From: a virus
Direction: 5' to 3' (one strand)
Virus record (IMG/VR): IMGVR_UViG_3300014879_000002
Location: 1-42,459 of that record
Length of the DNA stretch: 42,459 nt
Under the pieces are notes generated by a model. That model worked only from the letters and a program-made list of their open reading frames with translations. It was not told where the DNA came from and searched no databases. Position 1 is the first letter of the stretch. Each line of letters opens with the position of its first letter. The position numbers were made by a program, and so were the translations under genes. This document shows, one piece after another, positions 14,838 to 42,071 of this stretch.

Positions 14838-14996
14838 ATGTATAGCCAGGACCAGGTAAATATTATAATAAATTCTTACTCTCAGGAGATAGTAAGATTA
14901 CTTGATAAGGTAGTTGCCAAAGATCTAAAGATAGCTGAATTAACTAAACAAGTAACTGAGTTAAAAAATCAGGATGGAGCAAAAGAACGAGTTTAA
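14838..14996 (+). CDS. Small coiled-coil hypothetical protein (52 aa; below the ORF-track cutoff)
   Basis: ATG 2 nt after the previous stop. Sequence 'MYSQDQVNIIINSYSQEIVRLLDKVVAKDLKIAELTKQVTELKNQDGAKERV'. Overlaps the portal start by 23 nt. Confidence 0.35.
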   Translation: MYSQDQVNIIINSYSQEIVRLLDKVVAKDLKIAELTKQVTELKNQDGAKERV

Positions 14997-27134: not shown

Positions 27135-27381
27135 GGCTCCGTGTGGGATTAAGGTTCCTGTGATTTTTACTTGCGAAAATCCTGGAGATTTGAAATCTAT
27201 TAATCTTAACTTTTATCAAGGAGATAGAGTGATCTTAGCTGATATTATTCACGGTTATGATTTCACTAATGGTAAATTTTCCCTTACTTATTACTTTTTA
27301 GATACAAACCCCGACCGTTTGGTCTGGACTGTGTACGATCAGGGGTGGAACCCAAAAGTTTTTGAGACTGCGATAAGGTAA
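27079..27381 (+). CDS. Small putative lipoprotein (100 aa, GTG start)
   Basis: 'MANILKFLILCLVLLSCSKA' has a lipobox-like LLSC. It is the last gene of the rightward block and converges on and overlaps the leftward gene 27284..27799 by 98 nt. Confidence 0.45.
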   Translation: MANILKFLILCLVLLSCSKAPCGIKVPVIFTCENPGDLKSINLNFYQGDRVILADIIHGYDFTNGKFSLTYYFLDTNPDRLVWTVYDQGWNPKVFETAIR

Positions 27382-27799
27382 GCTTCTCAATTATCCGGCA
27401 TGTGTGTGCGGATCTGGGTGGACCTATTAGCCAGTCTTCATGCTCCCATTCCTGGAAAAATTCGCCTTTCATTATTTCGGTTTTTGGGGCTGAAACTACT
27501 TTGGAGTTAAAACACTTAAGACCCATTCGTAACGCTTTATGTTGGACGAACGCATAAGATACCCCGGCTAGTTTAGCTATCTCGTATATGGGCTTTTGTT
27601 TGTGATGCTCTATGATTAGACTTTCGACAAGATTCTTTTTTTCTAACCATTCCGGCATTTCTAAATCAATGCCTTCCTTTGTGGCGTATCGCCAGACGGT
27701 ATTTATGTGAATGTCTAAATCTATAGAAATTTCTTTGGCTGTTTTTTTGCCAGCCCATTTTTTCAAATAGCTTACTAAATCAACTTTTAATACTTTCAT
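27284..27799 (-). CDS. DNA-binding protein with two HTH motifs (171 aa)
   Basis: 'KTAKEISIDLDIHINTVWRYATKEG' and 'PIYEIAKLAGVSYAFVQHKALRMG'. Last gene of the leftward block. Confidence 0.6.
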   Translation of the reverse strand: MKVLKVDLVSYLKKWAGKKTAKEISIDLDIHINTVWRYATKEGIDLEMPEWLEKKNLVESLIIEHHKQKPIYEIAKLAGVSYAFVQHKALRMGLKCFNSKVVSAPKTEIMKGEFFQEWEHEDWLIGPPRSAHTCRIIEKLTLSQSQKLLGSTPDRTQSRPNGRGLYLKSNK

Positions 27800-28116
27800 G
27801 GCGTTTGGTTAGGTTGTTCGTCGAGCCATTCTATTTCTTCTATGGGATATTTCTCTTTTAACTCTCCAACAATAAACATTCCACAGCTATCATAGATACC
27901 ATAATTCGGTTCAGACATCCACTTTAGGTTAAGACGTTTATTCTGCTCTGGCAATCTTTCACTTGCTTTCACCCAAGATGGGGCAAGCTGTTGTTGAGCG
28001 TGTTCTTCCATTGCTTTAAGAATTGAAATATAAATCAACGGATATTTATTCCATAACCCATCACCGCTGCCAATAACATGGCAATGATCTTCTAATATTT
28101 CCTCTTTACTTTTCAT
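27796..28116 (-). CDS. Hypothetical protein (106 aa), DUF551-like
   Basis: 'WVKASERLPEQNKRLNLKW...EIEWLDE' resembles DUF551 phage proteins. ATGA coupling to the downstream gene. Confidence 0.5.
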   Translation of the reverse strand: MKSKEEILEDHCHVIGSGDGLWNKYPLIYISILKAMEEHAQQQLAPSWVKASERLPEQNKRLNLKWMSEPNYGIYDSCGMFIVGELKEKYPIEEIEWLDEQPNQTP

Positions 28117-28129
28117 GTTGATAGTTGTT

Positions 28130-28252
28130 TCATTTCTTTTTTAATTTCTCCTGCCATCGTGAAATAGACTCCCAATGGGTAATTTTTTCTCTTTTAATTT
28201 CATAACCAAAAAACTTCAAGATACTACGTAGTATAATATGAATTAGTTTCAT
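28130..28252 (-). CDS. Very small hypothetical ORF (40 aa; below the track cutoff)
   Basis: The ATG overlaps the upstream stop in an ATGA arrangement. Sequence 'MKLIHIILRSILKFFGYEIKREKITHWESISRWQEKLKKK'. Fills an otherwise empty 132-nt gap. Confidence 0.3.
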   Translation of the reverse strand: MKLIHIILRSILKFFGYEIKREKITHWESISRWQEKLKKK

Positions 28253-28506
28253 GGGTATAAACTTTCATAAGTGTAAATTGCCTGGCACAGAGAAATTCTC
28301 TTCCATTGTTCCCCTTCGGTCATATTCCAGTATTTTTCTTTTTCATCATAAGTTAAATCGCTTAAAGGAACTAAATCTTTATTTCTTACCAGTTCAACAT
28401 AAAGCAGCTGTAATGGAATCCAGTATGCTGAACTTCTTAAAATATCACTTATTGGATCAGGTGAACTTTGTAACAGGGATAAGGTGAGGTCAAAGGGGAT
28501 CATCAT
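28249..28506 (-). CDS. Hypothetical protein (85 aa)
   Basis: ATG ORF co-oriented with the leftward operon. Confidence 0.55.
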   Translation of the reverse strand: MMIPFDLTLSLLQSSPDPISDILRSSAYWIPLQLLYVELVRNKDLVPLSDLTYDEKEKYWNMTEGEQWKRISLCQAIYTYESLYP

Positions 28507-28525
28507 AAGGGAATTATACTTTTAA

Positions 28526-29047
28526 TTACTGCGTTAGCTTTTGCCTTACTTCAAAAACCTTACTGAACGTAAACCCTGAGTCCACATACCCCTGTATGGT
28601 CAACTGAACGCACGCACACCTGCACAAAAATTTATCTTCACCATAGGCTCCCTGGATGTCACTAACCTCCATTTTCGAGAAAGGCTTTAATAGTTTTTGT
28701 GTTTTTAGGAAGTCGTAATATTTACCAAACTCCCTGAACGGAACCGAAGTTGGATGCTGAGAATATTTCTCTAGTAATTCGTCTAATTCTCTGACCTCCT
28801 TAATACTGCTTTTTTCTTCCATTTTGGGCTTAATTATAATATTTGACTTTTTATTAAAACCGTTGTTAACCCACCTATGAAGTCTGCGGGATAAATCCCA
28901 TGTCTTTTCCATCTCGAACCTCATTTTCTTTCCTCCTGGAGTTGGTTCTGTCCAGTACTCAATAAATTCTTTTCTTATTTCGTAAGGAAAAGAAATCATC
29001 CTGTTCGCTTTATCCATGAAATCCCTTTCCCGTTCTTCTATATTCAT
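28526..29047 (-). CDS. Conserved-looking early hypothetical protein (173 aa)
   Basis: 'FIEYWTEPTPGGKKMRFEMEKTWDLSRRLHRWVNNGF' is an N-terminal motif seen in phage and mobile-element proteins of unknown role. I could not assign a function. Confidence 0.6.
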   Translation of the reverse strand: MNIEERERDFMDKANRMISFPYEIRKEFIEYWTEPTPGGKKMRFEMEKTWDLSRRLHRWVNNGFNKKSNIIIKPKMEEKSSIKEVRELDELLEKYSQHPTSVPFREFGKYYDFLKTQKLLKPFSKMEVSDIQGAYGEDKFLCRCACVQLTIQGYVDSGFTFSKVFEVRQKLTQ

Positions 29048-29436
29048 AAGGTATTTTTCAGTAAATCCGTAACCAACTAAAAACTTTATATTAAACTCAA
29101 AAAATTATAGGAAGGCCCCGCCGACCAAAAACGACTCTTTTAGATTAATATAAAAACTTGGTGCTTTGCCGTCCGCCATGGCTTTGCCAACCCCTTCACC
29201 TACACAGCATTTACCGGAATCATTACCGGCTATTCCCCCTCCGTTTTAGCCTGACAATAAAGGCAAGTCAGGTGATCACGTAATTATGCAATGCTGCCCA
29301 AAGACCTTGTTTAAATATCAGTTTCGCAACTATCGGGGACATTTCAGAAACTATGTTTGATCCGTCTCCTATAACCCAACTTCTGGGCTGCTGTAATCTT
29401 GCCAGATCCCGAGGCAGCCGTGCTGTTTCCAGGTTG

Positions 29437-29796
29437 CTATTTATAAATCCTAATAATTTGCTCTAATTCAAACCTTGTCCACTTTTTCATCGGCTTAACA
29501 TTTTCCAGCCACAACACTTTTTCTTCTCCATACCGGCTAACAAGTCCCTTCCTGTATTCAATAAGGTTGCCGTGCTTGTGGTAGTTGCAGGGCAAGCATT
29601 GCCCCTGGCAATTCATTTCGTTAAACCTTAAAGAACTAAAATTACCTTGCGCCCTGTAGTGCCCGGCATGATGAATCTCACCACCACACGAAACACACCC
29701 TTTATCCTTGTCCCTATTCCTGATCCATTTATTAAAAACAATCTGAGCTTTTTTAAGTAGTTTCGGTAGGGTAATGGATTTTTTTGTTTTAATCAT
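29437..29796 (-). CDS. ninG: NinG/Rap-like recombination endonuclease (119 aa from ATG 29796)
   Basis: 'KGCVSCGGEIHHAGHYRAQGNFSSLRFNEMNCQGQCLPCNYHKHGNLIEYRKGLVSRYGEEKV' matches the lambda NinG Cys/His pattern. The ATG at 29796 forms an ATGA overlap with the upstream stop. Confidence 0.7.
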   Translation of the reverse strand: MIKTKKSITLPKLLKKAQIVFNKWIRNRDKDKGCVSCGGEIHHAGHYRAQGNFSSLRFNEMNCQGQCLPCNYHKHGNLIEYRKGLVSRYGEEKVLWLENVKPMKKWTRFELEQIIRIYK

Positions 29797-30362
29797 GCTC
29801 TCTCCTCTTTTAATAATCCCCATTGTTCAGCCATTGCCTGCGCTATCCCGGGGAAAGTTTTAGACCTCAGTTTCCCTCTGTCCGGGCCGGGTGCCATTTT
29901 CCAAACCTTTCCTTCTCTCCCATCAACTATATTTGTAGGAACCAAAAGAGGCAAATCTTTAAGCCATAAACAAGTTGCTTTTGTTTCTCCGTGTCCGAAT
30001 TGCCAGGGCTGTATGATCTGATCCGGCTTTCGGTAAATAGTGGACATTATGCCTATCGGGTTTTCAACACAATCGCACAATTCAACCATTTCTAAAAAAA
30101 ACTCAATACCTTTTTGCTGTCTGCCGTCCTTCCTTTTTTCTTCAAACCATCTCGCCCCACTCACAGCCAAATGATCACAAGGGGGAAAGCCTATTTTTAA
30201 ATCCCAATCACCTTTAAGAACTTCTAAGCAATCTCCGATTATATGCCACTCAGGGTGTCCCCCGGAACAATCCTGTAAATCGCAGGAATAAGCTTCATGG
30301 CCTAAATCCCTAAAGGCTTTTGTAACAACCTGACTTTCCTCACAAGCGACTAATACTTTCAT
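29793..30362 (-). CDS. Miniature C5-cytosine-methyltransferase-like protein (189 aa from ATG 30362) lacking a canonical motif I and a target-recognition domain
   Basis: 'GFPPCDHLAVSG' resembles motif IV (PCQxFSxAG) and 'VENPIG' resembles motif VI (ENV). The N-terminus 'MKVLVACEESQ' stands where FxGxG would be. The ATG at 30362 forms an ATGA overlap with the upstream gene. Confidence 0.55.
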   Translation of the reverse strand: MKVLVACEESQVVTKAFRDLGHEAYSCDLQDCSGGHPEWHIIGDCLEVLKGDWDLKIGFPPCDHLAVSGARWFEEKRKDGRQQKGIEFFLEMVELCDCVENPIGIMSTIYRKPDQIIQPWQFGHGETKATCLWLKDLPLLVPTNIVDGREGKVWKMAPGPDRGKLRSKTFPGIAQAMAEQWGLLKEERA

Positions 30363-30781
30363 ACTATCTCCATTTGCTGTCCAGGGTCCGGGATCACAAT
30401 ATTTAAAAACTGCGCCGCCCAAATCTGAATCTTTTCTATATACTCGGAAAACTGTTCTTTGTTTAATCCTGTGGTTGTTTTGGGTATCGTTATAAATTCG
30501 CCGGTTTCGTCGTTCACAATTTCCAAATAGTTAAACTTTCCTTTCAAAAAATCATGTGTTTCTTCTTTGGTTAGTTGATGGCCGTAATCCTTAAAAGCGT
30601 TCTGAAGGACAGGAACCACGATCCCGAAATAATACCTATTTTGTTCGTTACTCCTTTTGTCGGCTTTCTCAACTTCAAGGGTGTATCTTCCGTCCTTTAA
30701 TTCTGCGAACAGTTTTTTTACCTGAGACTTGTTTTGAATCTCCCCGTTTCGTATAGTAAGTAAACACCAATTCTTACTCAT
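30359..30781 (-). CDS. ninB: NinB/Orf-like recombination mediator (140 aa)
   Basis: 'KRSNEQNRYYFGIVVPVLQ...TTTGLNKEQFSEYIEKIQIWAAQ' parallels lambda NinB 'RSLDQNRKLWACLGDV...STSRMRVGEFAELLELIQAFG'. Confidence 0.6.
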   Translation of the reverse strand: MSKNWCLLTIRNGEIQNKSQVKKLFAELKDGRYTLEVEKADKRSNEQNRYYFGIVVPVLQNAFKDYGHQLTKEETHDFLKGKFNYLEIVNDETGEFITIPKTTTGLNKEQFSEYIEKIQIWAAQFLNIVIPDPGQQMEIV

Positions 30782-31037
30782 TCCCTGCGGCTTTTTTACA
30801 TGCTATATTCAATTCCCGTACTTTAAGTAGCTCACCATTCTTCAGTCTTTCAAGTGGCGAAAGCTGACGGTCAAGTAAAGTTTTATGTAATTCGTTCCAT
30901 TCAGCCTCACTTATTGATGGTAGTCTGTATTCGATCTCTTCGATCTGTTCAGGAGACAGGGAGGCTGTTCTCATTAAATATTGAGCCTCTTGTATCATTT
31001 CCTGTTCCATTATAAATATGTCTTTTGCTGTTATCAT
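30774..31037 (-). CDS. Hypothetical acidic early protein (87 aa)
   Basis: ATG ORF with overlaps at both ends, typical of the operon. Confidence 0.55.
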   Translation of the reverse strand: MITAKDIFIMEQEMIQEAQYLMRTASLSPEQIEEIEYRLPSISEAEWNELHKTLLDRQLSPLERLKNGELLKVRELNIACKKAAGNE

Positions 31038-31591
31038 ACTTTTGAAATAAACATTTCAAACTCTTCAATCCATTCCAAAGCAAGCTTACTAAATTGTGAA
31101 TTTCTTGGTTTATCGCCGATTTTAATTCCCAAAAAGAATCGCTCAATGGGCCGTGATGAATCTCTGCAATCCATAATTTTTTTTATTACTTCCTTCTCTT
31201 GTTTGCCATTAGTAATTTTTGCCCCCTTTATTAATGTTCCTGATAAACAAGCACACTCCCCCTCGTATGTTGATCCATCTATATTACCGTCAATTATATT
31301 TTGTTTTAAAAATTTTAATTCGGGAAGTGAATTTAGGAGGACATAAAACATATCTGCTTTTATTACCGATAAGTTCGCCCCCGATAAGTCCGCCTCCCAT
31401 AAGTTCGCCTTCGATAAGTTCGCCCATGATAAGTTCGCCTTCGATAAGTCCGCCTCCGATAAGTCCGCCCATGATAAGTTCGCCCCCGATTTTATAGCTT
31501 CCGCAACAGTATGTTTTATGGTGTTATTTTCTTTTTCATACTCAAAAAGTATTTTTGACGTAAATTTGTTTTTTATTTCAATTACTGACAT
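31034..31591 (-). CDS. Pentapeptide-repeat protein (185 aa)
   Basis: 'GANLSWADLSEADLSKANLSWANLSKANLWEADLSGANLS' is eight consecutive A(D/N)LSx pentapeptides, followed by a ~100-aa Cys-containing C-terminal domain. Confidence 0.85.
   Translation of the reverse strand: MSVIEIKNKFTSKILFEYEKENNTIKHTVAEAIKSGANLSWADLSEADLSKANLSWANLSKANLWEADLSGANLSVIKADMFYVLLNSLPELKFLKQNIIDGNIDGSTYEGECACLSGTLIKGAKITNGKQEKEVIKKIMDCRDSSRPIERFFLGIKIGDKPRNSQFSKLALEWIEEFEMFISKV
31368..31487. repeat. Eight tandem 15-bp units (GATAAGTYCGCCNNN) encoding the pentapeptide repeats
   Basis: Read directly. The units are near-identical at DNA level, and several are exact duplicates of each other. Confidence 0.9.
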
Positions 31592-31608
31592 ATATTTTGA
31601 TTTATTAA

Positions 31609-32232
31609 TTAGAAAGGAAGGTCGTCTAAGGGTTCAGTAATTTCGTTTGCGTAAGACCTTTCAGCAGGGTTCTTTAATGCCTTATACTCATCAGACCCCT
31701 GCATTTTGACTTTAATGAAATCCGGAAGAGAATTGAACTTTACTTCATCCCATTCATCATAACTCAAAACAAATAATTTATTCATTGCTTTAGGAACCTG
31801 GACACCTTTTGGAATCGCTGTGATACCGGCAATATTGTCGTAAACCCTCAATCCATCTGATGATGGGCGGTGAATGATGTTTAACATACACGCAGCACCT
31901 AAGAGTTTCGTAATATCAAATGCTTTGGCTTCATCTTCGGTGAAGTCTTTGCCACGCCAGCTTTTTAAATCCTTCCGTAAATTGCTTTTCTCATTCATTG
32001 ATAAAGTGTACTCTTTGCTTATGGCTAAAGGCTGTTCACCTTTTGACGGGTCGAAAATCTTTAGTTCGGTGGGCAGCTCCCACCCTATTCTCACTTTATG
32101 TAACGTTTTTTGTTTACCCATAATAAACTCGGTTACTGTTCCGATTTCGATCATTTGATAACACCGGGCGATGTAATTCCCTGCTGGAATTGGGTCCCGT
32201 GTTGTCCCGGTTGATGTTGCTGTAATTGGCAT
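31609..32232 (-). CDS. ssb: Phage single-stranded DNA-binding protein (207 aa)
   Basis: The C-terminal acidic tip '...EPLDDLPF' is equivalent to the bacterial SSB 'DDDIPF' interaction tail. The N-terminal 'PIPAGNYIARCYQMIEIGT' is of the kind seen in DUF669-like phage SSBs. Confidence 0.6.
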   Translation of the reverse strand: MPITATSTGTTRDPIPAGNYIARCYQMIEIGTVTEFIMGKQKTLHKVRIGWELPTELKIFDPSKGEQPLAISKEYTLSMNEKSNLRKDLKSWRGKDFTEDEAKAFDITKLLGAACMLNIIHRPSSDGLRVYDNIAGITAIPKGVQVPKAMNKLFVLSYDEWDEVKFNSLPDFIKVKMQGSDEYKALKNPAERSYANEITEPLDDLPF

Positions 32233-35169: not shown

Positions 35170-35387
35170 AAGAAATCATTTATTCTAGTTGTTTGGCGTG
35201 GACATGGGTTTATATTTTAGGCTTTATCAGGTTTAAGTATAAGCCCATTAATTGCGCTAAATGTATGTCAGCCTGGATTTGTTTGGCCTTGTGCGTAGGA
35301 AGGTTCCCGATTTGGGAGGTCCCGTTTTTAATCTGCATAGCTATGATCTGTACCATTATTCTAACTGCAATGATGAATAAACTATGA
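35166..35387 (+). CDS. Small polytopic membrane protein (73 aa)
   Basis: Two to three hydrophobic helices plus a 'KPINCAKCMSAW' motif. ATGA-type overlaps at both ends. Confidence 0.55.
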   Translation: MKEIIYSSCLAWTWVYILGFIRFKYKPINCAKCMSAWICLALCVGRFPIWEVPFLICIAMICTIILTAMMNKL

Positions 35388-36442
35388 AGATTCTGTGTGT
35401 GTACGATGGTTCCGGTCCCAAACTGCATCGTTGCTTACTTCCTTGCGCCGGGATGGAAAAGACTTACAAGGTAGAAATAAAGGTAGTAAATCATTTACCA
35501 AGTTATTCAGAAGATGACATTTTTAACGGCATTGATATTGTTCTTTTCAACAGGATGATAGCCGGGGTAAACAGGGAAAGGCTTTTGATGTGGCGTGAAA
35601 AGTATGGGTTCAAATTAGTGTGTGATTTAGACGATCACTGGGTATTAGATAGGGACCATTTGCTTTACGAAGGTTACAGACAGCACATGATTACCACAAT
35701 TATAGAATGGTACATCAAACACTCAGATTTGATTTTGGTCACTCACGAGCGATTGCATCGGGATGTAATTGAAATAAATAAGAACTGTTACATCTTGCCA
35801 AATGCAATTCCTAAGTTCGACCAGTTCTTAGTAAAGAAGATACCCGATGATTATGTAAGGTTATTCTGGGCGGGCGGGGTGACACATAGGAAAGATTTAG
35901 AGTTATTAAGACGACCACTAAAGCTAATCAAACGGGACGGGGTAAAGTTAATCATGGGTGGCTATGAGGATAATCCGGAATGGAAGGAGATGGCTAAGAT
36001 ATTTACAACAGATTCGACATACAACACGCAGGTGATACGGTCAGAGCCGCCAACAAGTTACTATTGCGTTTATTCCCTTTGTGACATTTCGCTTGTCCCG
36101 TTGGTTCAAAGCAAATTCAATGAGCATAAAAGCAATCTTAAAATACTCGAGGCGGCTAATATTGAAGCTCCTGTCGTGGTCAGTCGTGTACATCCCTATG
36201 TCGGTTTTCCTGATAGTATTGTGTCGTACGTTGATTCTCATAGGCCGTGGTATTCGCAAATTACGAAGCTTATTAAAGATCCAATCCTAAGAAAAGAGCA
36301 GGGCATCGAGTTAAGAAACTACTGTGACATTCACTATTCGTTCAATAAGATAAACCAAATGCGTTATGAATTACTACAGCATGAAACCGGACAACGTCGA
36401 GAAGTTAGAGAAGCACCGGCCAAAGCTGAACCTGTGGATTAA
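35384..36442 (+). CDS. GT-B fold glycosyltransferase (352 aa)
   Basis: The C-terminal half has the GT1/GT4-type signature ('VRLFWAGGVTHRKDLELL...', 'KSNLKILEAANIEAPVVVS'). Confidence 0.55.
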   Translation: MKILCVYDGSGPKLHRCLLPCAGMEKTYKVEIKVVNHLPSYSEDDIFNGIDIVLFNRMIAGVNRERLLMWREKYGFKLVCDLDDHWVLDRDHLLYEGYRQHMITTIIEWYIKHSDLILVTHERLHRDVIEINKNCYILPNAIPKFDQFLVKKIPDDYVRLFWAGGVTHRKDLELLRRPLKLIKRDGVKLIMGGYEDNPEWKEMAKIFTTDSTYNTQVIRSEPPTSYYCVYSLCDISLVPLVQSKFNEHKSNLKILEAANIEAPVVVSRVHPYVGFPDSIVSYVDSHRPWYSQITKLIKDPILRKEQGIELRNYCDIHYSFNKINQMRYELLQHETGQRREVREAPAKAEPVD

Positions 36443-36695
36443 TGACAAAACGTGTCACTTAGATTCAGGGGAGAAAGCTGAGATTCTAAACGTGATTAGA
36501 GAGGAGTTTAACTCAGGGTATCATGTGGATTTATGGTGTCATGCGTGTGTAGTAAGAATGTTGGAATATGCTTTTAATGAAATGGACAAACGAAAAATAG
36601 ATACAATAACCATACCTCTGGGGGCTAATGACGTAAAGATAACAGACCTGAACATAAGACCTGATACAAACTATACAATAAATACGAAAGACTAA
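36366..36695 (+). CDS. Hypothetical Cys/His-containing protein (109 aa)
   Basis: ATG ORF overlapping the previous gene by 77 nt. 'KTCHLDSG...DLWCHACVVRM'. Its stop overlaps the next start (TAATG). Confidence 0.4.
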   Translation: MNYYSMKPDNVEKLEKHRPKLNLWINDKTCHLDSGEKAEILNVIREEFNSGYHVDLWCHACVVRMLEYAFNEMDKRKIDTITIPLGANDVKITDLNIRPDTNYTINTKD

Positions 36696-37456
36696 TGGCA
36701 TTGATCGCAATGGCTGTATATGATACCGAAGAGAACAAACGAACGGAACTAACCGAGCGAACAATTAATTCTTTGTATGAAACTGTGGACTTTGACAAGC
36801 ATAGAATAATTGTTGTCGATAACGCAAGCTGTACAGCTACCAAGAATTTATTAGAAGCTACGTTTTGGCCAGATGAAATCATTACCCTTCCTGAGAATGT
36901 AGGCACAGCTAAAGCAATCAATCAGGCGTGGAAGTTAAGGCAACCCGGGGAAAATTGTGTAAAGATGGACAACGATGTAGAAATAGGTTTCGTGGGGTGG
37001 GTCGACGAAATGGAACGGGCGATAGAAAGAGATCCAACTATTGGGCAGGTAGGATTGAAAAGGAAAGACTGTTGGGAATATCCCACCCACGAAAACCCAG
37101 AGTTCAGGAGCGAGTTAATAATGCTAAACCACAAACCCGGCGAAGCGTGGATCGTAGTTGAAAGGTCAAAGCATATCATTGGAACGTGTGTAATGCACTC
37201 AGCAGCCCTATTAGACAAGGTGGGTTACTTGTATCAACCTGGATTATACGGCTACGACGATGTGCTAATGAGCTGGAGAAGTTCAATAGCTGGCTTTAAG
37301 AATGTATTCCTTTCTTATATTCCGATAGATCACATCGACCCCGGTGATACACCTTACCAGGGGTGGAAGGAAAGGCACTCAGGGGAGTACACAAGATTAG
37401 TGAGCGATATTGTGGACGGGTATTTAAAAGGTAAATCAATTTACTATGAGGCTTAA
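36695..37456 (+). CDS. Family-2-type (GT-A fold) glycosyltransferase (253 aa)
   Basis: 'RIIVVDNASCTATKNLL', 'LPENVGTAKAINQAWK' and the DxD-like 'VKMDNDV'. Confidence 0.7.
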   Translation: MALIAMAVYDTEENKRTELTERTINSLYETVDFDKHRIIVVDNASCTATKNLLEATFWPDEIITLPENVGTAKAINQAWKLRQPGENCVKMDNDVEIGFVGWVDEMERAIERDPTIGQVGLKRKDCWEYPTHENPEFRSELIMLNHKPGEAWIVVERSKHIIGTCVMHSAALLDKVGYLYQPGLYGYDDVLMSWRSSIAGFKNVFLSYIPIDHIDPGDTPYQGWKERHSGEYTRLVSDIVDGYLKGKSIYYEA

Positions 37457-37592
37457 GGCATTTATTAATATTGGGCTAATAGCAATGATAGTGAACATAA
37501 TTATAGCTTGTTTGAATCCGCAGATGTGGCACGAGATATTAGGATGGGTTGCGGCACTTATTCTTTTATGGGCAATTAAAGATATTAAATGA
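37446..37592 (+). CDS. Small membrane protein (48 aa; below the track cutoff)
   Basis: 'MRLKAFINIGLIAMIVNIIIACLNPQMWHEILGWVAALILLWAIKDIK' has two hydrophobic helices. ATGA overlap with the next gene. Confidence 0.4.
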   Translation: MRLKAFINIGLIAMIVNIIIACLNPQMWHEILGWVAALILLWAIKDIK

Positions 37593-38419
37593 ACTACTAC
37601 GTAACAGGAGCTAATGGATTTATAGGGCAGAATGTAATCAGGTATCTGAGAGATAAAGGGCTTAAAGCTACTGGGGTTCCCAGACACTTCGAGGAGTCGA
37701 TCTTTGACATTGAATTTGAGGAACCGTTTACGTTCATCCACTTATCAGCTTACGGGAATCACTATAACCAAAAGGATACAAGCCAGATCATCAAGGCTAA
37801 CATCCAGGATTTAAAACTTCTTTTGGCTTACTTCAAGAACTTTAAACAACCAGAAAAGTTTATCAATGTTTCCACCTCTTCCATCACCCTGACTTGCCAG
37901 ACGATGTATTCACTCTCTAAGCACTTTGGGGAGTTAATGGTGGACAGTATGAATAACAAAAGGTTTATAAATGTCAGACCATACTCAGTTTACGGTCCAC
38001 TTGAAGCGGGTCACAGATTTATACCTACGGTAATTCGCGCATTGGAAAACAGAGAAACAATAGAGCTGGACCCGTATTCTAAACACGATTGGATTTATGT
38101 GGATGATTTTATTGAGGCAATGTTACAAGGAATCCCCAACGTGGGGACAGGGATTTCAACGTCTAATTTGGAAGTAGTTAGAATACTTGAACATCTTTCA
38201 TTTAGGGAATTAAAATACACCCCTGGTAAGATGAGAGATTACGACACTCAGAACTGGGTATGTCCAGTTGGGGTGAAACACATACCTATTTATGAAGGCT
38301 TAAAACGTACTTATGAATCCGTTACAAAACAGAATAAAAGCAATCAGCAAGAAGTTAAACCTGTCTCACCTGGGGTCAAACCTAACTGCAGTGGGAATAA
38401 TAGACAGGGTTTATCATAA
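37589..38419 (+). CDS. NAD(P)-dependent sugar epimerase/dehydratase (SDR family, 276 aa)
   Basis: Rossmann motif 'YVTGANGFIGQNV' at the N-terminus and a catalytic YxxxK at 'YSLSK'. The 3' ~107 nt overlap the next gene in another frame. Confidence 0.7.
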   Translation: MNYYVTGANGFIGQNVIRYLRDKGLKATGVPRHFEESIFDIEFEEPFTFIHLSAYGNHYNQKDTSQIIKANIQDLKLLLAYFKNFKQPEKFINVSTSSITLTCQTMYSLSKHFGELMVDSMNNKRFINVRPYSVYGPLEAGHRFIPTVIRALENRETIELDPYSKHDWIYVDDFIEAMLQGIPNVGTGISTSNLEVVRILEHLSFRELKYTPGKMRDYDTQNWVCPVGVKHIPIYEGLKRTYESVTKQNKSNQQEVKPVSPGVKPNCSGNNRQGLS

Positions 38420-38891
38420 GAGAAAGCCGCATGAACCTTTTGTTCTTTCGTGTGGTCATGCTGGTTTAGCTCTATACGTTGTACTTGAAAAGTATTTAGG
38501 AGTGAACGCTGAAGAGTTATATAAAAAACACGGGACTCACCCGAACAGGGATATTGAAAATGGTATTTATTGTTCAACTGGTTCTTTAGGTTGGGGTATT
38601 ACGATAGCCGCAGGGATGGCATTTGCTGACCGGGATAAGAATGTCTGGTGTTTGATTTCAGACGGTGAAGCGTTTGAAGGTTCAATCTGGGAGGTGGCTA
38701 ATGTGATGCACAGGTACAAGTTAGACAACCTTAAAGTGTGTTTGAATTGGAACGGTTGGAGTGCTTATCATTCAGTAAGCAGGAATTTCGTGGAGAGGGT
38801 TAAAGCTATCTTCCCTTCTATTTCGGTATGCGAAACGAGTGTAAAAGATTACGGGTTCAAAGGTTTGGAAGCACATTATGTAAAACTATGA
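38313..38891 (+). CDS. Transketolase-like ThDP enzyme, N-terminal (PP-domain) subunit, short form (192 aa)
   Basis: 'HLGSNLTAVGIIDRVY...FVLSCGHAGLALYVVLEKYLG' and 'GSLGWGITIAAGMAFADRDKNVWCLISDGEAFEGSIWEVAN...LNWNG' give a ThDP-binding GDG-x27-N-like motif, here SDG. Confidence 0.7.
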   Translation: MNPLQNRIKAISKKLNLSHLGSNLTAVGIIDRVYHKRKPHEPFVLSCGHAGLALYVVLEKYLGVNAEELYKKHGTHPNRDIENGIYCSTGSLGWGITIAAGMAFADRDKNVWCLISDGEAFEGSIWEVANVMHRYKLDNLKVCLNWNGWSAYHSVSRNFVERVKAIFPSISVCETSVKDYGFKGLEAHYVKL

Positions 38892-39343
38892 GACAACAAT
38901 TCTTTAGAGACTTACACAAGTTAATGTTTGACAACTGGAATGTTTATTTCATTACCGGGGATTTAGGGTTTGGGCTCGCTGACAAGATCAGAGATGACTT
39001 CCCTGATCGGTTTATCAATGTGGGTGCAGCAGAAGTAACGATGCTAGGTGTAGGAATCGGCCTGGCATTAGAAGGCAAAGTTCCAATATGTTACTCAATC
39101 ACTCCGTTCCTTTTGTTTCGCCCTTATGAGGGGATAAGAAATTATTTACATCATGAACAGATCCCGGTGATTCTAGTGGGGAGTGGAAGGGGAAAAGACT
39201 ACGAGCACGACGGCTTCAGTCATTGGGCTGAGGATGATGCAGAAGCACTCAGACATTTGAACATAGAAATATATTATGACTATGAAAATTTAAATGATAT
39301 TGTAGCTAAAAATAAACCAGTTTACATAAATTTATCAAGATGA
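38888..39343 (+). CDS. Transketolase-like ThDP enzyme, Pyr-domain subunit, short form (151 aa from ATG 38888)
   Basis: 'FITGDLGFGLADKIRDDFPDRFINVGAAEVTMLGVGIGLALEGKVPICYSITPFLLFRPYEGIRN' and 'GSGRGKDYEHDGFSHWAEDDAEALRHL' match the transketolase pyrimidine-binding domain. No Transketolase_C region follows. ATGA overlap with the previous gene. Confidence 0.7.
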   Translation: MRQQFFRDLHKLMFDNWNVYFITGDLGFGLADKIRDDFPDRFINVGAAEVTMLGVGIGLALEGKVPICYSITPFLLFRPYEGIRNYLHHEQIPVILVGSGRGKDYEHDGFSHWAEDDAEALRHLNIEIYYDYENLNDIVAKNKPVYINLSR

Positions 39344-39525
39344 AATTAAGGTTAGAAATAGAAATCGAATGTGGAGACACACTTATAGACACGTCCAATA
39401 TAGTTGAAGTAAATTGGTTATTAAAGGACATTCTAATACCATCCGACTTACGTGTCTATAGCAATGAGATAGGGGGTGAGTTTGGCGATGTTATATCTGT
39501 CGCTAATATAAAAATATTACAGTAA
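39340..39525 (+). CDS. Hypothetical protein (61 aa)
   Basis: ATGA overlap upstream and TAATG overlap downstream. Confidence 0.45.
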   Translation: MKLRLEIEIECGDTLIDTSNIVEVNWLLKDILIPSDLRVYSNEIGGEFGDVISVANIKILQ

Positions 39526-40166
39526 TGAAACATCTCAATGATACAAACGGCGCAAGCAAGCTAACATTAAAGATAGCTGAAAAATGCTTATCAGAGTTTG
39601 AAGGCACGTTAATTGGTGTTGAGTTTGGTGTGGCTTACGGTGGAGGAATAGAGGCTATCGGGAAGTTGTGGGGAGTAAGGGGCAAGATATACGGCTTTGA
39701 CACATTTGAAGGACACCCCAAACAAATAGGGGAGATTTGCCAGGATAGTAAAAGGGCGGGCGGGGTTCATTCGTTCGCTGCTACTTGTATGGATAGTTGG
39801 TATCAAAGAGAAGATTACGGAACCGAAGCTATTAAGTACGATTACATCAGGAAGAACCTCGACGATCAGGGCGTAATAAATGCTATTCTTGTTAAGGGAT
39901 TGGTCACGGATAAGACAGATGTTTCGTTCCTTAATGCTATTCACTACGCTTTTATTGATCTGGATTTCCCGCTTTCAAACAGGCAAGCATTTGAATTGAT
40001 TAAAGACAAGATTGTAAAGGGCGGGTACTTGATGTTACACGACTGTGTGCCTAAAGGTCATATATCAGGCTGCTATGAAGTGTACCAGGATATTTTAAAG
40101 ACAGGAATGTTTGAGTTGATGGGAGAATTTAACCCAGAGTATTTAGTAATAATGATAAGAAAATGA
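39525..40166 (+). CDS. Class I SAM-dependent methyltransferase, TylF (macrocin O-methyltransferase)-like (213 aa)
   Basis: 'LIGVEFGVAYGGG' (SAM motif I), 'IYGFDTFEGHP' (TylF-type DxFeG) and 'YAFIDLDFPLS...GGYLMLHD'. Confidence 0.65.
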   Translation: MKHLNDTNGASKLTLKIAEKCLSEFEGTLIGVEFGVAYGGGIEAIGKLWGVRGKIYGFDTFEGHPKQIGEICQDSKRAGGVHSFAATCMDSWYQREDYGTEAIKYDYIRKNLDDQGVINAILVKGLVTDKTDVSFLNAIHYAFIDLDFPLSNRQAFELIKDKIVKGGYLMLHDCVPKGHISGCYEVYQDILKTGMFELMGEFNPEYLVIMIRK

Positions 40167-40491: not shown

Positions 40492-40754
40492 AACTACTAA
40501 TTATCTTTTTGCTGACTTCAGCAGTATGTTATGGGCAATCAGATTCAACAGCAATAACGCAGGAGGTTTTCTTTTCCCCGTTAATTAATAAATACGGTTT
40601 AGTAACAAACAATGGGAGTAGTTATGATAATGTGGTACATGGTACTTTAGAGTTTGTTGAACAGCAAAAGGAAATTGAATATCAAAAAGCATGGTTAAGA
40701 AGAAAACCTATTAGGATTGTAACTGTAAAATGTAAATCACCCTTTAAGAAATGA
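40488..40754 (+). CDS. Small exported protein (88 aa from ATG 40488)
   Basis: 'MKLLIIFLLTSAVCYG|QSDS' is a signal peptide with Gln at +1. The track ORF 40404..40754 starts at an upstream non-ATG codon in the same frame. Confidence 0.55.
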   Translation: MKLLIIFLLTSAVCYGQSDSTAITQEVFFSPLINKYGLVTNNGSSYDNVVHGTLEFVEQQKEIEYQKAWLRRKPIRIVTVKCKSPFKK

Positions 40755-41398
40755 AGCTAATCAACGGTAATACAATGGAGTTAAACTTGCTCTCAGATCA
40801 GGCAAGGAATCATTTTGATAACCCCAGAAACTACACAGACTTTATCATAGCAGAATGGGATGAGTTACCTTATTCCGGATACCTCAAACCTAATTCAATT
40901 ATACTGGACATAGGGGCTAACATAGGATTATTTGGATTGCACGTGAAACCATTTGCCAAAAGACTAATTTGCGTTGAGCCTACACCTGAACACATGAAGA
41001 TCCAAAAAGAACTCTTAGATGCAGAACATGAACAAGCTGCGTTAAATTCATACACAGGCAAAGCAAGGTTCAGAAACGAGCCGGTGAATACCACAATGAA
41101 CACTTTACGGGAAAGCTCAGACGCTTACGAAGTGGATTGTATTACACTTAAAGACTTGTGCATCAAATACGAATTAGACAAAGTTGATTTCTGCAAAGTG
41201 GATATAGAGGGAAGCGAATGGCAAGCATTGACAGTAGAAAGACTCAAAGAAGTCAAAGGGATTATTAAATCCTTTTTCGTTGAGCTGCACCCCAGGACAG
41301 GGGTATCACAGTTTGAGATGGGTAAAAGATTCGAAGAGGCCGGCTATAAAGTAAAAGTAATTGATTACAACGGCTCAATTTATTGTTATGAAACTTAG
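40751..41398 (+). CDS. FkbM-family SAM-dependent methyltransferase (215 aa)
   Basis: 'ILDIGANIGLFGLHV', 'ICVEPTPEH', 'FCKVDIEGSEWQAL' and 'FFVELHP' match FkbM family motifs. Confidence 0.7.
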   Translation: MKLINGNTMELNLLSDQARNHFDNPRNYTDFIIAEWDELPYSGYLKPNSIILDIGANIGLFGLHVKPFAKRLICVEPTPEHMKIQKELLDAEHEQAALNSYTGKARFRNEPVNTTMNTLRESSDAYEVDCITLKDLCIKYELDKVDFCKVDIEGSEWQALTVERLKEVKGIIKSFFVELHPRTGVSQFEMGKRFEEAGYKVKVIDYNGSIYCYET

Positions 41399-42071
41399 AG
41401 TATTAACTACATCCCACACCACAGATAACCAGGGCTGGCGCAAGCTGGAAGAGAGTTTAAAAAAATTCAACTATGAATACACCCACATCCTACACCCGTT
41501 CTCATTCGGTCATCAGTTGCCTGTTATCCGTGATTGGTGTCTTAATAATCGCGGTAGCTGTACTCATATTTTATATACTGACTGCTTCGATACTATTGCT
41601 TATTCGGGTCCCGAAGAGGTTGAAGGCAAGTTCCCGGAATGTAAAATGCTTATCTCAGCAGAAAAGGCGTGCTATCCCCATCCCTCCCGAGCTACAGACT
41701 ATCCGGAAACAAGTACACCCTGGAAGTATGTCAATGGAGGAGGCTGGATGGTTGAACTAGAATACTTCCTTCACCTGTGCCAAAAAGAAAGATTAGACCA
41801 TAACTCCCACGACCAGGTATGGCTAATGGATTCATTCTTAAGGAATCAGGACGAAATAAATATTGATAACAACTGTGAAATATTTCAAACGATAGCGTTT
41901 AGTCATAAGGAAGAATGGGTAAAGGGCGGACAAACAACAAGGTATGGTTCACAGGATGATAGGGGGAGTTATTTAGAAGTAACTATACCAAGGTTCCAAA
42001 ACATTGGCACACAATCGTTTCCGGTATTTTTTCACGGCAATGGTCACACAGATATGCAATGGCTATATTAA
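41388..42071 (+). CDS. Glycosyltransferase-like protein (227 aa from ATG 41388), PLOD/LH3-GT-like
   Basis: 'ILYTDCFDTIA', 'LISAEKACYPHP' and 'KYVNGGGWMVELEYF' resemble the 'fsAEkncWP ... yLNSGgfiG' pattern of lysyl-hydroxylase-type GT domains. This rests on memory of the pattern only. Confidence 0.4.
   Translation: MKLRVLTTSHTTDNQGWRKLEESLKKFNYEYTHILHPFSFGHQLPVIRDWCLNNRGSCTHILYTDCFDTIAYSGPEEVEGKFPECKMLISAEKACYPHPSRATDYPETSTPWKYVNGGGWMVELEYFLHLCQKERLDHNSHDQVWLMDSFLRNQDEINIDNNCEIFQTIAFSHKEEWVKGGQTTRYGSQDDRGSYLEVTIPRFQNIGTQSFPVFFHGNGHTDMQWLY

What the first reader, a model, noticed from the sequence alone, without database searches (positions are those of the whole stretch)
38313..39343. Truncated two-subunit transketolase-like ThDP enzyme in a phage
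The two ORFs reproduce the PP domain (a ThDP-binding GDG-x27-N-type motif, here 'SDGEAFEG...LNWN') and the Pyr domain ('FINVGAAEVTMLGVGIGLA') of transketolase. They are only 192 and 151 aa, whereas split bacterial transketolase sections are clearly larger, and the Transketolase_C domain is absent. They are translationally coupled (ATGA at 38888-38891) and lie immediately downstream of an SDR epimerase/dehydratase whose 3' end they overlap. That order suggests a keto-sugar intermediate being handed to a ThDP-dependent C2-transfer step, which would give a branched-chain or chain-extended sugar. ThDP-dependent branching is established for yersiniose (YerE), though that enzyme has a different ThDP fold. 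A minimal heterodimeric transketolase core used for glycan tailoring by a virus would be new enzymology.
Basis: partly seen in the sequence, partly recalled or inferred. Interest (0 to 1): 0.65.

Follow-up and report, generated by a model that had tools for sequence, protein, structure and literature searches.

The report
Minimal two-subunit transketolase in phage sugar operon
This phage carries a conserved, stripped-down two-protein version of the vitamin-B1 enzyme transketolase inside a sugar-tailoring operon, and its relatives sit beside enzymes that make keto-sugars, so it probably builds an unusual branched sugar rather than serving central metabolism.

Summary
ORF A (38313-38891, 192 aa) is a transketolase-type PP (ThDP-diphosphate) domain. 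ORF B (38888-39343, 151 aa) is a transketolase Pyr domain. The two are joined by an ATGA overlap, and there is no TKC domain. They are not decayed fragments: more than 1,600 and more than 1,200 homologues of the same small size exist, at least 537 viral contigs encode a relative, and longer TKC-less forms (about 240 + 166 aa) occur in glycan loci of Patescibacteria and other uncultured cells. AlphaFold models are confident (pLDDT 93.5 and 90.9) and match the split transketolase 6YAK/6YAJ best. The cofactor ligands and the transketolase catalytic residues are conserved, and ORF B ends exactly at the Arg520 equivalent. In 85 distinct relatives the gene directly upstream is an SDR (29, some true 4,6-dehydratases), an RfbH/E1-type 3-dehydrase (20) or a sugar aminotransferase (11). 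Two kinds of methyltransferase fusion also exist. The best explanation is a ThDP carboligase that adds a C2 unit to an NDP-4-keto-deoxyhexose, working like YerE but on a transketolase fold. The function is inferred, not shown. In this window the SDR is not a dehydratase and more likely acts after the transketolase. I rate it a new variant of a known kind.

The parts
35384..36442 (+). Glycosyltransferase (GT1/GT4-like), first gene of the glycan cassette
   Evidence: Pfam Glyco_trans_1_4 at 28.6 bits. PHROG phrog_7162 glycosyltransferase, E 7.5e-58. Syntenic in relatives L091 and L137 (cluster c13).
36695..37456 (+). Family-2 glycosyltransferase
   Evidence: Pfam Glycos_transf_2 at 33.8 bits. 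Found directly upstream of the SDR in relative L091 as well (cluster c223).
37589..38419 (+). Short extended-SDR nucleotide-sugar oxidoreductase of the non-dehydratase type. It has a roughly 30-aa unconserved C-terminal extension that overlaps ORF A.
   Evidence: Pfam Epimerase at 76.9 bits. GxxGxxG and YxxxK motifs are present. It has 'STSS' where 4,6-dehydratases have 'STDE'. Relatives end at ...TYEHxTK/R, 20 nt into ORF A, whereas this copy reads on for 107 nt.
38313..38891 (+). Minimal transketolase PP (ThDP-diphosphate/metal-binding) subunit, 192 aa
   Evidence: Pfam Transketolase_N. Best PDB sequence match is 6yak_AAA, E 2.2e-14. AF2 pLDDT 93.5. Foldseek best hit is 6yak_AAA, TMq 0.69. 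Residues H19, H49, D117-G118-E119, N147 and H188 are invariant and H76 is nearly invariant. These were mapped to E. coli TK residues H26, H66, H100, D155, N185 and H261.
38888..39343 (+). Minimal transketolase Pyr (aminopyrimidine-binding) subunit, 151 aa, ending at the Arg520 equivalent. No TKC domain.
   Evidence: Pfam Transket_pyr at 47.1 bits. Best PDB sequence match is 6yaj, E 1.7e-13. AF2 pLDDT 90.9. Foldseek best hit is 6yaj, TMq 0.85. E49, F74 and H112 are invariant. R2, D108 and R151 are conserved in at least 90% of sequences. The protein ends at the ...LSR motif.
39340..39525 (+). 61-aa ORF of unknown function, coupled to ORF B by an ATGA overlap
   Evidence: Sequence reading. No Pfam hit. 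It was too short for my 70-aa ORF cut-off, so its conservation in relatives was not examined.
39525..40166 (+). Class-I SAM methyltransferase (Methyltransf_24 / TylF-like)
   Evidence: Weak Pfam hits: Methyltransf_24 at 21.7 bits and TylF at 18.6 bits, both below cutoff. The same family (c44) lies between the N and P genes in L013, L141 and L149. A Methyltransf_24 domain is fused to the C-terminus of a mini TK-N in P0339.
40751..41398 (+). FkbM-family methyltransferase
   Evidence: Pfam Methyltransf_21 at 45.2 bits. NCBIfam fkbM_fam at 70.3 bits, cutoff 37.7. This is the commonest gene directly downstream of the Pyr subunit in viral relatives, 23 of 66.
41361..42071 (+). Glycosyltransferase with a PLOD-type GT domain
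   Evidence: Pfam GT_PLOD at 86.5 bits. Syntenic with cluster c140 in relatives L091 and L093.

Best explanation
ORFs A and B encode the two halves of a minimal transketolase-superfamily ThDP enzyme. By analogy with split transketolases it is probably an (alpha-beta)2 assembly, with ThDP and Mg2+ bound between the PP subunit (A) and the Pyr subunit (B). The enzyme would form a ThDP-bound C2 carbanion. The donor is most likely activated glycolaldehyde from hydroxypyruvate or a ketose phosphate, because the transketolase histidines that hold the donor C1 and C3 hydroxyls are kept. An acetyl unit from pyruvate is less likely. The enzyme would add this unit to the carbonyl of an NDP-4-keto-(6-deoxy or 3,6-dideoxy)hexose and so make a C-branched sugar. 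That is the reaction YerE performs for yersiniose, but on a transketolase fold instead of an acetolactate-synthase fold. The translationally coupled short SDR would then reduce a carbonyl of the product, as YerF does. The Methyltransf_24 and FkbM enzymes would methylate it. The three glycosyltransferases would install it on a phage or host glycoconjugate.

Shown here: domain identity, completeness of the cofactor and catalytic residues, strong conservation, and the gene neighbourhood and fusion statistics.

Inferred: the quaternary structure, the donor, the acceptor, the order of steps and the final glycan.
For: 1. Identity. Pfam, PDB sequence and fold matches all point to the transketolase PP and Pyr domains. 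The AF2 models are confident.

2. Active site. Residues were mapped with the HMMER alignments to 6YAK/6YAJ, the residue list in PMC7661550 and MAFFT alignments to classical split and full-length TKs.
- Subunit A keeps H19 (Ec H26), H49 (H66), H76 (H100), G90/L92, D117-G118-E119, N147 and H188 (H261).
- Subunit B keeps R2 (R358), L26, E49 (E411), F74, D108 (D469), H112 (H473) and R151 (R520).
- All are invariant or conserved in at least 90% of family alignments.

3. Selection. There are 1,623 and 1,208 homologues of the same size. There are 166 clusters at 50% identity with E<=1e-30, mostly 190-250 aa. At least 537 viral contigs encode a relative. The 4-nt stop/start overlap is present in 42 of 76 distinct gene pairs.

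4. Context. In 85 distinct relatives the gene directly upstream of TK-N falls into three main classes.
- An SDR in 29. Six of these are TDE-motif NDP-hexose 4,6-dehydratases.
- An RfbH/E1-type 3-dehydrase in 20. One of these, L096:6685-8004, scores 446 bits against the NCBIfam RfbH equivalog cutoff of 423.
- A Lys-type sugar aminotransferase in 11.
- All of these enzymes make or use NDP-4-keto-hexoses.
- Loci L134 and L109 hold a 4,6-dehydratase, RfbH, TK-N, TK-Pyr, an FkbM methyltransferase and further SDRs. This matches the yersiniose logic DdhB, DdhC, YerE, YerF.

5. Fusions. A Methyltransf_23/11 domain is fused to TK-N in P0293, and TK-N is fused to Methyltransf_24 in P0339.

6. Cellular relatives. 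They sit in a cassette of SDR, methyltransferase, TK-N, TK-Pyr and GT2, with PMT_2/GT-C enzymes nearby.

7. Precedent. Split TKs have been proposed to add a hydroxyacetyl branch to a keto-sugar (PMC12247030).
Against: - There is no biochemical evidence for any member of the family.
- The window itself has no 4,6-dehydratase or RfbH. The keto-sugar would have to come from the host pool or from the short SDR.
- Ketone acceptors are unproven for any transketolase.
- Two phosphate-binding residues of classical TK are replaced: the S385 and H461 equivalents are G29 and G100.
- Gene order alone cannot fix the order of reactions or the donor.
- The B model resembles DXS almost as well as TK (TMq about 0.8), so pyruvate as donor is not excluded.
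Confidence: 0.55

Rival explanations
1. Same enzyme and same kind of acceptor, but the donor is pyruvate as in DXS or YerE. An acetyl or 1-hydroxyethyl branch is made instead of a glycolyl branch.
For: Foldseek places B almost as close to DXS as to TK (TMq 0.76-0.82). There are weak DXP_synthase_N hits for A and many relatives. All biochemically proven sugar-branching ThDP enzymes use 2-oxo acids.
Against: DXP_synthase_N is below its gathering score (20.0 against 21.2). The sequence is nearer to TK in every search. The 'HP' histidine (H76, the E. coli TK H100 equivalent, which holds the donor C1-OH) is kept in at least 90% of members. That DXS lacks this histidine is from my own knowledge and was not tested here. 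The characterised split TK does not accept pyruvate.
Confidence: 0.17
2. A ThDP ketol-transfer enzyme that acts on a different acceptor. It might extend the chain of an aldehyde-bearing sugar, or transfer a glycolyl group to an amine or hydroxyl as Rif15 does. The neighbouring SDR or aminotransferase would then process the new ketol carbonyl.
For: An SDR and an aminotransferase alternate at the position directly upstream. That pattern would fit two alternative fates, reduction or amination, of a TK-made ketone. Aldehydes are the normal TK acceptors. Rif15 is a two-subunit TK that forms a C-O bond (PMC6002545, listed).
Against: No enzyme that would make a sugar aldehyde is seen in the loci. The upstream genes include true 4,6-dehydratases and RfbH, whose products are 4-ketones and not aldehydes.
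Confidence: 0.15
3. An ordinary pentose-phosphate transketolase carried as an auxiliary metabolic gene to boost host nucleotide or NADPH supply.
For: Sources name relatives 'transketolase'. The TK catalytic histidines and both phosphate-binding arginines are retained.
Against: 57 of 66 distinct viral copies have an SDR or a DegT-family gene directly upstream, and 65 of 66 have one nearby. The pair lies in glycan cassettes in both viruses and cells. It is fused to methyltransferases. Scores are far below every NCBIfam transketolase equivalog cutoff (74 against 488). The S385 and H461 equivalents are lost. No other pentose-phosphate genes are nearby.
Confidence: 0.05
4. Decayed fragments (pseudogenes) of a full-length or split transketolase.
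For: The two proteins are much shorter than known split transketolases (309 + 341 aa chains in 6YAK/6YAJ).
Against: Thousands of homologues have the same length, with invariant catalytic residues. The reading frames are intact and coupled. The models are confident and compact. The deletions remove whole surface elements, not random pieces.
Confidence: 0.01

Closest known systems
Split-gene transketolase (Carboxydothermus hydrogenoformans ChTK-N/ChTK-C, PDB 6YAK/6YAJ; also archaeal split TKs)
   Same: [quoted passage not shown] It is the best sequence and fold match. The ThDP and metal ligands and the catalytic residues are shared.
   Different: ChTK chains are about 280 + 312 aa, and ChTK-C carries the TKC domain (residues 164-312). 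The phage pair is 192 + 151 aa with no TKC, and it lacks one beta-alpha unit and the terminal helices of the PP domain. Its context is glycan tailoring, not central metabolism.
YerE and YerE-like carboligases (yersiniose, erwiniose, caryophyllose pathways)
   Same: The proposed job is the same: ThDP-dependent addition of a small carbon unit to the C4 ketone of an NDP-3,6-dideoxy-4-keto-hexose, followed by an SDR reductase. The partner genes are the same in relatives: a 4,6-dehydratase and an RfbH/DdhC 3-dehydrase.
   Different: YerE belongs to the decarboxylase (acetolactate-synthase-like) superfamily. It is a single chain with the Pyr domain before the PP domain. Here the fold and domain order are those of a transketolase. 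It works like YerE but is not a member.
Split-gene transketolases proposed for miharamycin and amipurimycin, and 13 predicted Streptomyces split TKs (Krug et al., cited in PMC12247030)
   Same: A TK-superfamily two-gene enzyme proposed to add a hydroxyacetyl branch to a keto-sugar.
   Different: Those come from actinomycete antibiotic clusters. According to the review they are unproven in vitro. I could not compare sequences. The present family is viral or from uncultured cells, and it is TKC-less.
E1 alpha/beta-type (alpha-KADH2) sugar-branching enzymes (KbDH-alpha/beta in the review; AviB1/B2 of eurekanate from my own knowledge)
   Same: A heteromeric PP + Pyr enzyme that adds a two-carbon branch to a keto-sugar.
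   Different: There is no E1_dh hit for the window protein. The E1 beta subunit has a TKC-like domain. The donor is pyruvate.
Small two-subunit ThDP decarboxylases (sulfopyruvate decarboxylase ComDE from my own knowledge; phosphonopyruvate decarboxylase RhiEF, PDB 9IZ3)
   Same: Similar size (about 170-190 aa per chain) and a two-chain PP + Pyr minimal architecture. Weak fold match, TMq about 0.5.
   Different: These belong to the decarboxylase superfamily. ORF B matches Transket_pyr and not TPP_enzyme_N. The transketolase histidines are present here.

Membership tests
Transketolase superfamily (Pfam Transketolase_N + Transket_pyr) | PP domain scoring above the Pfam gathering threshold, with the ThDP motif GDG-X(~27)-N | tested here: met
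   Transketolase_N at 39.4 bits against cutoff 22. The motif is SDGE...NWN (S116-D117-G118...N147), with Ser replacing the first Gly. The Ser is invariant in the family.
Transketolase superfamily (Pfam Transketolase_N + Transket_pyr) | Pyr domain above the gathering threshold, with the cofactor-activating Glu | tested here: met
   Transket_pyr at 47.1 bits against cutoff 27. E49 is invariant and aligns with ChTK-C Glu55 / Ec E411.
Transketolase (EC 2.2.1.1, canonical enzyme) | C-terminal TKC domain | tested here: not met
   No Transketolase_C hit. ORF B and all mini homologues end at the ...LSR motif that precedes TKC.
Transketolase (EC 2.2.1.1, canonical enzyme) | Catalytic histidines and Asp (Ec H26, H66, H100, H261, H473, D469) | tested here: met
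   In A: H19, H49, H76 and H188. In B: H112 and D108. All are invariant or conserved in at least 90% of sequences and aligned. The E. coli numbering is from my own knowledge.
Transketolase (EC 2.2.1.1, canonical enzyme) | Full substrate-phosphate site (Ec R358, S385, H461, R520) | tested here: inconclusive
   The R358 and R520 equivalents (R2 and R151) are kept. The S385 and H461 equivalents are Gly (G29 and G100).
Transketolase (EC 2.2.1.1, canonical enzyme) | Score above the NCBIfam transketolase equivalog cutoff | tested here: not met
   The best model is NF004559, at 74 bits (A) and 43 bits (B) against a cutoff of 488.
Transketolase (EC 2.2.1.1, canonical enzyme) | Ketol transfer between sugar phosphates | not testable with these tools
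   This needs an enzyme assay.
Split-gene transketolase (ChTK type) | alpha2beta2 assembly with ThDP at the N/C subunit interface | not testable with these tools
   Only single chains could be modelled. The adjacent, coupled genes are consistent with such an assembly.
YerE-like carboligases (decarboxylase superfamily) | Single chain with TPP_enzyme_N, a middle domain and TPP_enzyme_C (Pyr before PP) | tested here: not met
   Only a local TPP_enzyme_C motif hit in A (residues 88-150). No TPP_enzyme_N or TPP_enzyme_M hit. The order is PP then Pyr, on two chains.
YerE-like carboligases (decarboxylase superfamily) | Genomic association with the NDP-hexose 4,6-dehydratase and the E1/RfbH 3-dehydrase that make the keto-sugar acceptor | tested here: met
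   This holds for relatives and not for the window itself. RfbH-type genes lie directly upstream in 20 of 85 relatives and within +-7 genes in 41 of 85. TDE-type dehydratases lie directly upstream in at least 6.
[quoted passage not shown] | DXP_synthase_N above the gathering score, single chain with a TKC domain | tested here: not met
   DXP_synthase_N at 20.0 bits against cutoff 21.2. NCBIfam dxs at 15.8 and 21.1 bits against 466. No TKC domain.
2-oxo-acid dehydrogenase E1 alpha/beta (alpha-KADH2) | E1_dh domain in the alpha subunit; Pyr + TKC domains in the beta subunit | tested here: not met
   No E1_dh hit for ORF A at E<=0.01. The PDH E1-alpha fold match is weaker than the TK match (TMq 0.57 against 0.69). 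No TKC domain.

The most novel reading that the evidence does not exclude
Phages, together with the Patescibacteria and other uncultured lineages that share these genes, use the smallest known transketolase-superfamily catalyst (343 residues over two chains, no TKC domain) to make glycolyl-branched deoxysugars. These sugars have not yet been described in any viral or bacterial glycan. The enzyme would be the first transketolase shown to accept a ketone (an NDP-4-ketohexose) and form a tertiary alcohol.
Probability: 0.4. Interest if true: 0.75.

Novelty: new variant of a known kind. Interest (0 to 1): 0.62.

Why it matters
- It would give a natural, very small and apparently complete transketolase core. 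That bears on the old question of what the TKC domain is for, and it offers a compact scaffold for biocatalysis.
- It would give an abundant, testable candidate for the still unproven idea that transketolases can branch keto-sugars.
- It implies that many uncultured phages build unusual branched, methylated deoxysugars. These sugars could affect virion properties or host-surface recognition.
- Virome surveys that count these genes as 'transketolase' pentose-phosphate auxiliary genes are probably misreading them.

Tried and rejected
The interface and the ThDP site geometry could therefore not be checked.
- A tblastn search of ORF A against 50,697 deposited phage records gave only matches below 38% identity, mostly over about two thirds of the query. 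The few annotated ones are ordinary transketolase genes and most of the rest lie in unannotated records. No cultured phage with this pair was found.
- PHROGs gave only weak hits to two families of unknown function, though of matching length (192 and 153 positions).
- Six literature searches found no description of a TKC-less transketolase pair in phages or in Patescibacteria. They found only the general proposal that split TKs branch sugars.
- I considered phosphonopyruvate or sulfopyruvate-decarboxylase-type enzymes. I rejected them on domain order, Pfam family and the weaker fold match.
- I considered a DNA-hypermodification role. I set it aside because the partner genes are nucleotide-sugar enzymes and GT1/GT2/GT10/GT11-type glycosyltransferases.
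- Single-linkage clustering merged the SDRs with some GT2 proteins. I re-split the cluster before counting.
Full report
**What is in the sequence**

The window is a phage genome or genome fragment. It has a large terminase at 214-1455, a head protease at 8406-9623 and a portal at 14974-16992. The terminase is at most 32% identical to that of any deposited phage. G+C is an even 0.37-0.43 throughout, including the region of interest.

At the right end a run of same-strand genes forms a glycan cassette:
- a GT1/4-like glycosyltransferase, 35384-36442;
- a GT2 glycosyltransferase, 36695-37456;
- a short extended SDR, 37589-38419;
- ORF A, 38313-38891;
- ORF B, 38888-39343;
- a 61-aa ORF, 39340-39525;
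- a Methyltransf_24/TylF-like methyltransferase, 39525-40166;
- an FkbM methyltransferase, 40751-41398;
- a PLOD-type glycosyltransferase, 41361-42071.

The genes from the SDR to the first methyltransferase are joined by overlaps: 107 nt between the SDR and A, ATGA between A and B, ATGA between B and the 61-aa ORF, and TAATG between that ORF and the methyltransferase.

**Checking the observation**

ORF A is 192 aa and matches Pfam Transketolase_N at 39.4 bits (cutoff 22), covering only profile positions 56-205 of 334. ORF B is 151 aa and matches Transket_pyr at 47.1 bits (cutoff 27). There is no Transketolase_C hit. Both quoted motifs are present.

The nearest solved structures by sequence are the two chains of the split transketolase of Carboxydothermus hydrogenoformans, 6YAK and 6YAJ. 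Human and bacterial transketolases come next.

**Not a decayed gene**

ORF A has 1,623 database homologues and ORF B has 1,208. Nearly all the listed ones are 190-200 aa and 150-170 aa respectively, at 55-75% identity.

A profile search of 1.84 billion cluster representatives found 166 clusters at E<=1e-30. Most are 190-250 aa long.

IMG/VR holds at least 537 viral contigs that encode a relative. Several show the pair between portal or Mu-F genes and capsid genes.

A longer but still TKC-less form (236-248 aa plus 165-170 aa) occurs on large cellular contigs of Patescibacteria, Omnitrophota, Thaumarchaeota and others.

The stop of the first gene overlaps the start of the second by 4 nt in 42 of 76 distinct pairs.

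**Structure and active site**

AlphaFold2 models are confident: pLDDT 93.5 for A and 90.9 for B. Foldseek ranks 6yak_AAA first for A (TMq 0.69). It ranks 6yaj first for B (TMq 0.85), with DXS close behind.

I mapped residues using the HMMER alignments, the published ligand list for ChTK and MAFFT alignments with classical split and full-length enzymes taken from the fetched loci.

| Role | ORF A or B residue | Equivalent |
|---|---|---|
| Diphosphate and metal site | A: H49, D117-G118-E119, N147 | ChTK H70, D148-G149-E150, N178 |
| Pyrimidine pocket | A: G90, L92; B: L26, E49, F74 | ChTK G117, L119; L31C, E55C, F80C |
| Transketolase catalytic residues | A: H19, H76, H188; B: D108, H112 | E. 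coli H26, H100, H261; D469, H473 |
| Phosphate-binding arginines | B: R2, R151 | E. coli R358, R520 |

All of these are invariant or conserved in at least 90% of sequences in alignments of 16-42 family members. The E. coli numbering is from my own knowledge of that enzyme.

Two things are lost. The equivalents of S385 and H461 are glycines, and Cys47 stands where ChTK has Lys68.

ORF B ends on the arginine that precedes the TKC domain. Relative to classical enzymes, ORF A lacks the N-terminal helix, a loop before the 'HP' motif, one beta-alpha unit (which the cellular 236-248 aa form keeps) and the C-terminal helices.

The pair is therefore a trimmed but catalytically complete transketolase core.

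**What the neighbours say**

I called ORFs in 150 fetched loci plus the window and clustered them. Among 85 distinct mini TK-N proteins, the gene directly upstream falls into these classes:

| Gene directly upstream | Count of 85 |
|---|---|
| SDR | 29 |
| DegT-family protein with His in place of the PLP lysine (SFYPAHHMTMGEGG) | 20 |
| Lys-type sugar aminotransferase (LegC/PseC-like) | 11 |
| DegT-family protein whose lysine/histidine motif could not be read | 1 |
| Other | 24 |

The His-type proteins are RfbH/E1-type PMP-dependent 3-dehydrases. One of them, L096:6685-8004, scores 446 bits against the NCBIfam RfbH equivalog cutoff of 423. Two others reach 335-348 bits. A protein of this type lies within seven genes in 41 of 85 cases.

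The upstream SDRs fall into two kinds:
- True NDP-hexose 4,6-dehydratases with the Thr-Asp-Glu motif. There are six of these, 317-328 aa long.
- Short SDRs of 240-289 aa with 'STSS' or 'SSSE' at that position. The window's SDR belongs to this second kind.

Exemplar loci L134 and L109 carry, in order or close by, a 4,6-dehydratase-like SDR (E 1e-87 to 1e-91), RfbH, TK-N, TK-Pyr, an FkbM methyltransferase, a second SDR, an RmlD-like reductase and a GalE.

Two independent fusions join the PP subunit to a methyltransferase: Methyltransf_23/11 at the N-terminus in P0293, and Methyltransf_24 at the C-terminus in P0339. In some phages a Methyltransf_24 gene sits between the two TK genes.

In cells the usual cassette is SDR, methyltransferase, TK-N, TK-Pyr and a roughly 315-aa GT2, with PMT_2/GT-C enzymes nearby. 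I read this, by analogy with the Arn pathway, as a sugar modified at the nucleotide level and then passed through a lipid carrier. That reading is an inference.

**Most likely mechanism**

Every recurrent partner makes or consumes an NDP-4-keto-hexose. The arrangement 4,6-dehydratase, RfbH, ThDP enzyme, SDR is the logic of the yersiniose pathway. There, YerE adds a C2 unit from pyruvate to CDP-3,6-dideoxy-4-keto-glucose, and a reductase (YerF, from my own knowledge) follows.

I therefore propose that the A/B enzyme forms a ThDP-bound C2 carbanion and adds it to the C4 carbonyl of an NDP-4-keto-deoxyhexose.

The donor is more likely hydroxypyruvate or a ketose phosphate than pyruvate, because the transketolase histidines that bind the donor C1 and C3 hydroxyls are retained. 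That would give a glycolyl branch. This step is inferred. The retained arginines could bind the nucleotide diphosphate, which is also an inference.

In this window no dehydratase or RfbH is present. The keto-sugar must therefore come from the host pool (for example the RmlB or Gmd product) or from the short SDR. That SDR lacks the dehydratase motif and is coupled to ORF A, so it more probably reduces the product. The two methyltransferases and three glycosyltransferases would finish and install the sugar. I put confidence in this overall reading at about 0.55.

**Rivals**

- Pyruvate as donor, giving a YerE- or DXS-like acetyl branch, remains possible (0.17).
- A different acceptor or bond type is possible (0.15). 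Examples are chain extension of an aldehyde, or Rif15-like glycolyl transfer, with the SDR or aminotransferase acting on the new ketol.
- A plain pentose-phosphate auxiliary gene is unlikely (0.05). The context argues against it, as do the methyltransferase fusions, scores far below the equivalog cutoffs and the lost S385 and H461 equivalents.
- Pseudogenes are excluded by conservation (0.01).

**Comparison with what is known**

The pair belongs to the transketolase superfamily by domain content and catalytic residues. It fails the canonical definition on the TKC domain and on the curated equivalog scores.

It works like YerE but is not a member of that family, because the fold, the domain order and the chain number all differ.

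The idea that split transketolases branch keto-sugars exists for miharamycin, amipurimycin and 13 predicted Streptomyces enzymes. According to a 2025 review, none has been shown to do so in vitro, and no structure of a ketone-accepting TK exists.

I found no paper describing a TKC-less transketolase pair or its presence in phages. PHROGs lists the nearest viral families as unknown. I recall that a TKC-deleted E. coli transketolase was reported to remain active (Costelloe et al. 2008). That is from memory. The paper is cited in PMC7661550 but I did not read it.

**Verdict**

The pair is a conserved minimal transketolase family and not a truncation. It is common in uncultured phages and in Patescibacteria-type cells. 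The role of the window's SDR is probably downstream of the transketolase and not upstream. I rate it a new variant of a known kind, with interest 0.62. The decisive work is a multimer model and an in vitro assay with NDP-4-keto sugars.

Noticed in passing
window 38313-38419: The SDR reads about 30 codons further than its relatives. They stop at ...TYEHxTK/R, 20 nt into the TK-N gene. Here the overlap with ORF A is 107 nt, and the extra tail (QNKSNQQEVKPVSPGVKPNCSGNNRQGLS) is unconserved. This looks like a lost stop codon.
   Followed up: yes
L071, L073, L079-L081, L084 (between TK-N and TK-Pyr); proteins P0273, P0290, P0317: Cys-rich genes of about 190 aa (cluster c33, no Pfam hit) are inserted between the two transketolase genes in some phages. 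In other contigs an HNH domain, once with NUMOD4, is fused in frame to the N-terminus of the mini TK-N. This gene pair appears to be a target for mobile endonucleases.
   Followed up: partly
L008, L010, L020-L031 (cellular contigs, mostly Patescibacteria): There is a conserved five-gene cassette: an SDR of about 315 aa, a Zn-ribbon SAM methyltransferase of about 297 aa, TK-N of 236-248 aa, TK-Pyr of about 166 aa and a GT2 of about 315 aa. PMT_2/GT-C membrane glycosyltransferases lie nearby, and L010 also has a TylC3-like sugar C-methyltransferase. This suggests a lipid-carrier route for an unknown modified sugar on the cell surface.
   Followed up: partly
window 41361-42071: This glycosyltransferase matches the PLOD (collagen lysyl hydroxylase) GT domain at 86.5 bits. 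That is an animal-type domain and unusual in a phage. It also matches part of a PHROG annotated as 2OG-Fe(II) oxygenase.
   Followed up: no
window 12713-14836: This 707-aa protein has a right-handed beta-helix region. It is a likely tailspike or depolymerase and so a hint that the host surface is polysaccharide-rich.
   Followed up: no
window 27284-32232: A block of minus-strand genes shows inverted GC and AT skew (about -0.14 against +0.12 to +0.18 elsewhere). It is probably a divergently transcribed early or regulatory module.
   Followed up: no
(source names of homologues): JGI names many of these mini proteins simply 'transketolase'. Virome studies that count pentose-phosphate auxiliary genes by such labels may be including this glycan-tailoring family.
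   Followed up: partly
L097, L100, L101, L104, L105, L111, L135 (downstream of the TK pair): A type-I phosphoribosyltransferase-like gene of about 177 aa (Pfam Pribosyltran) recurs in the RfbH-containing cassettes. Its role next to deoxysugar genes is unexplained.
   Followed up: no
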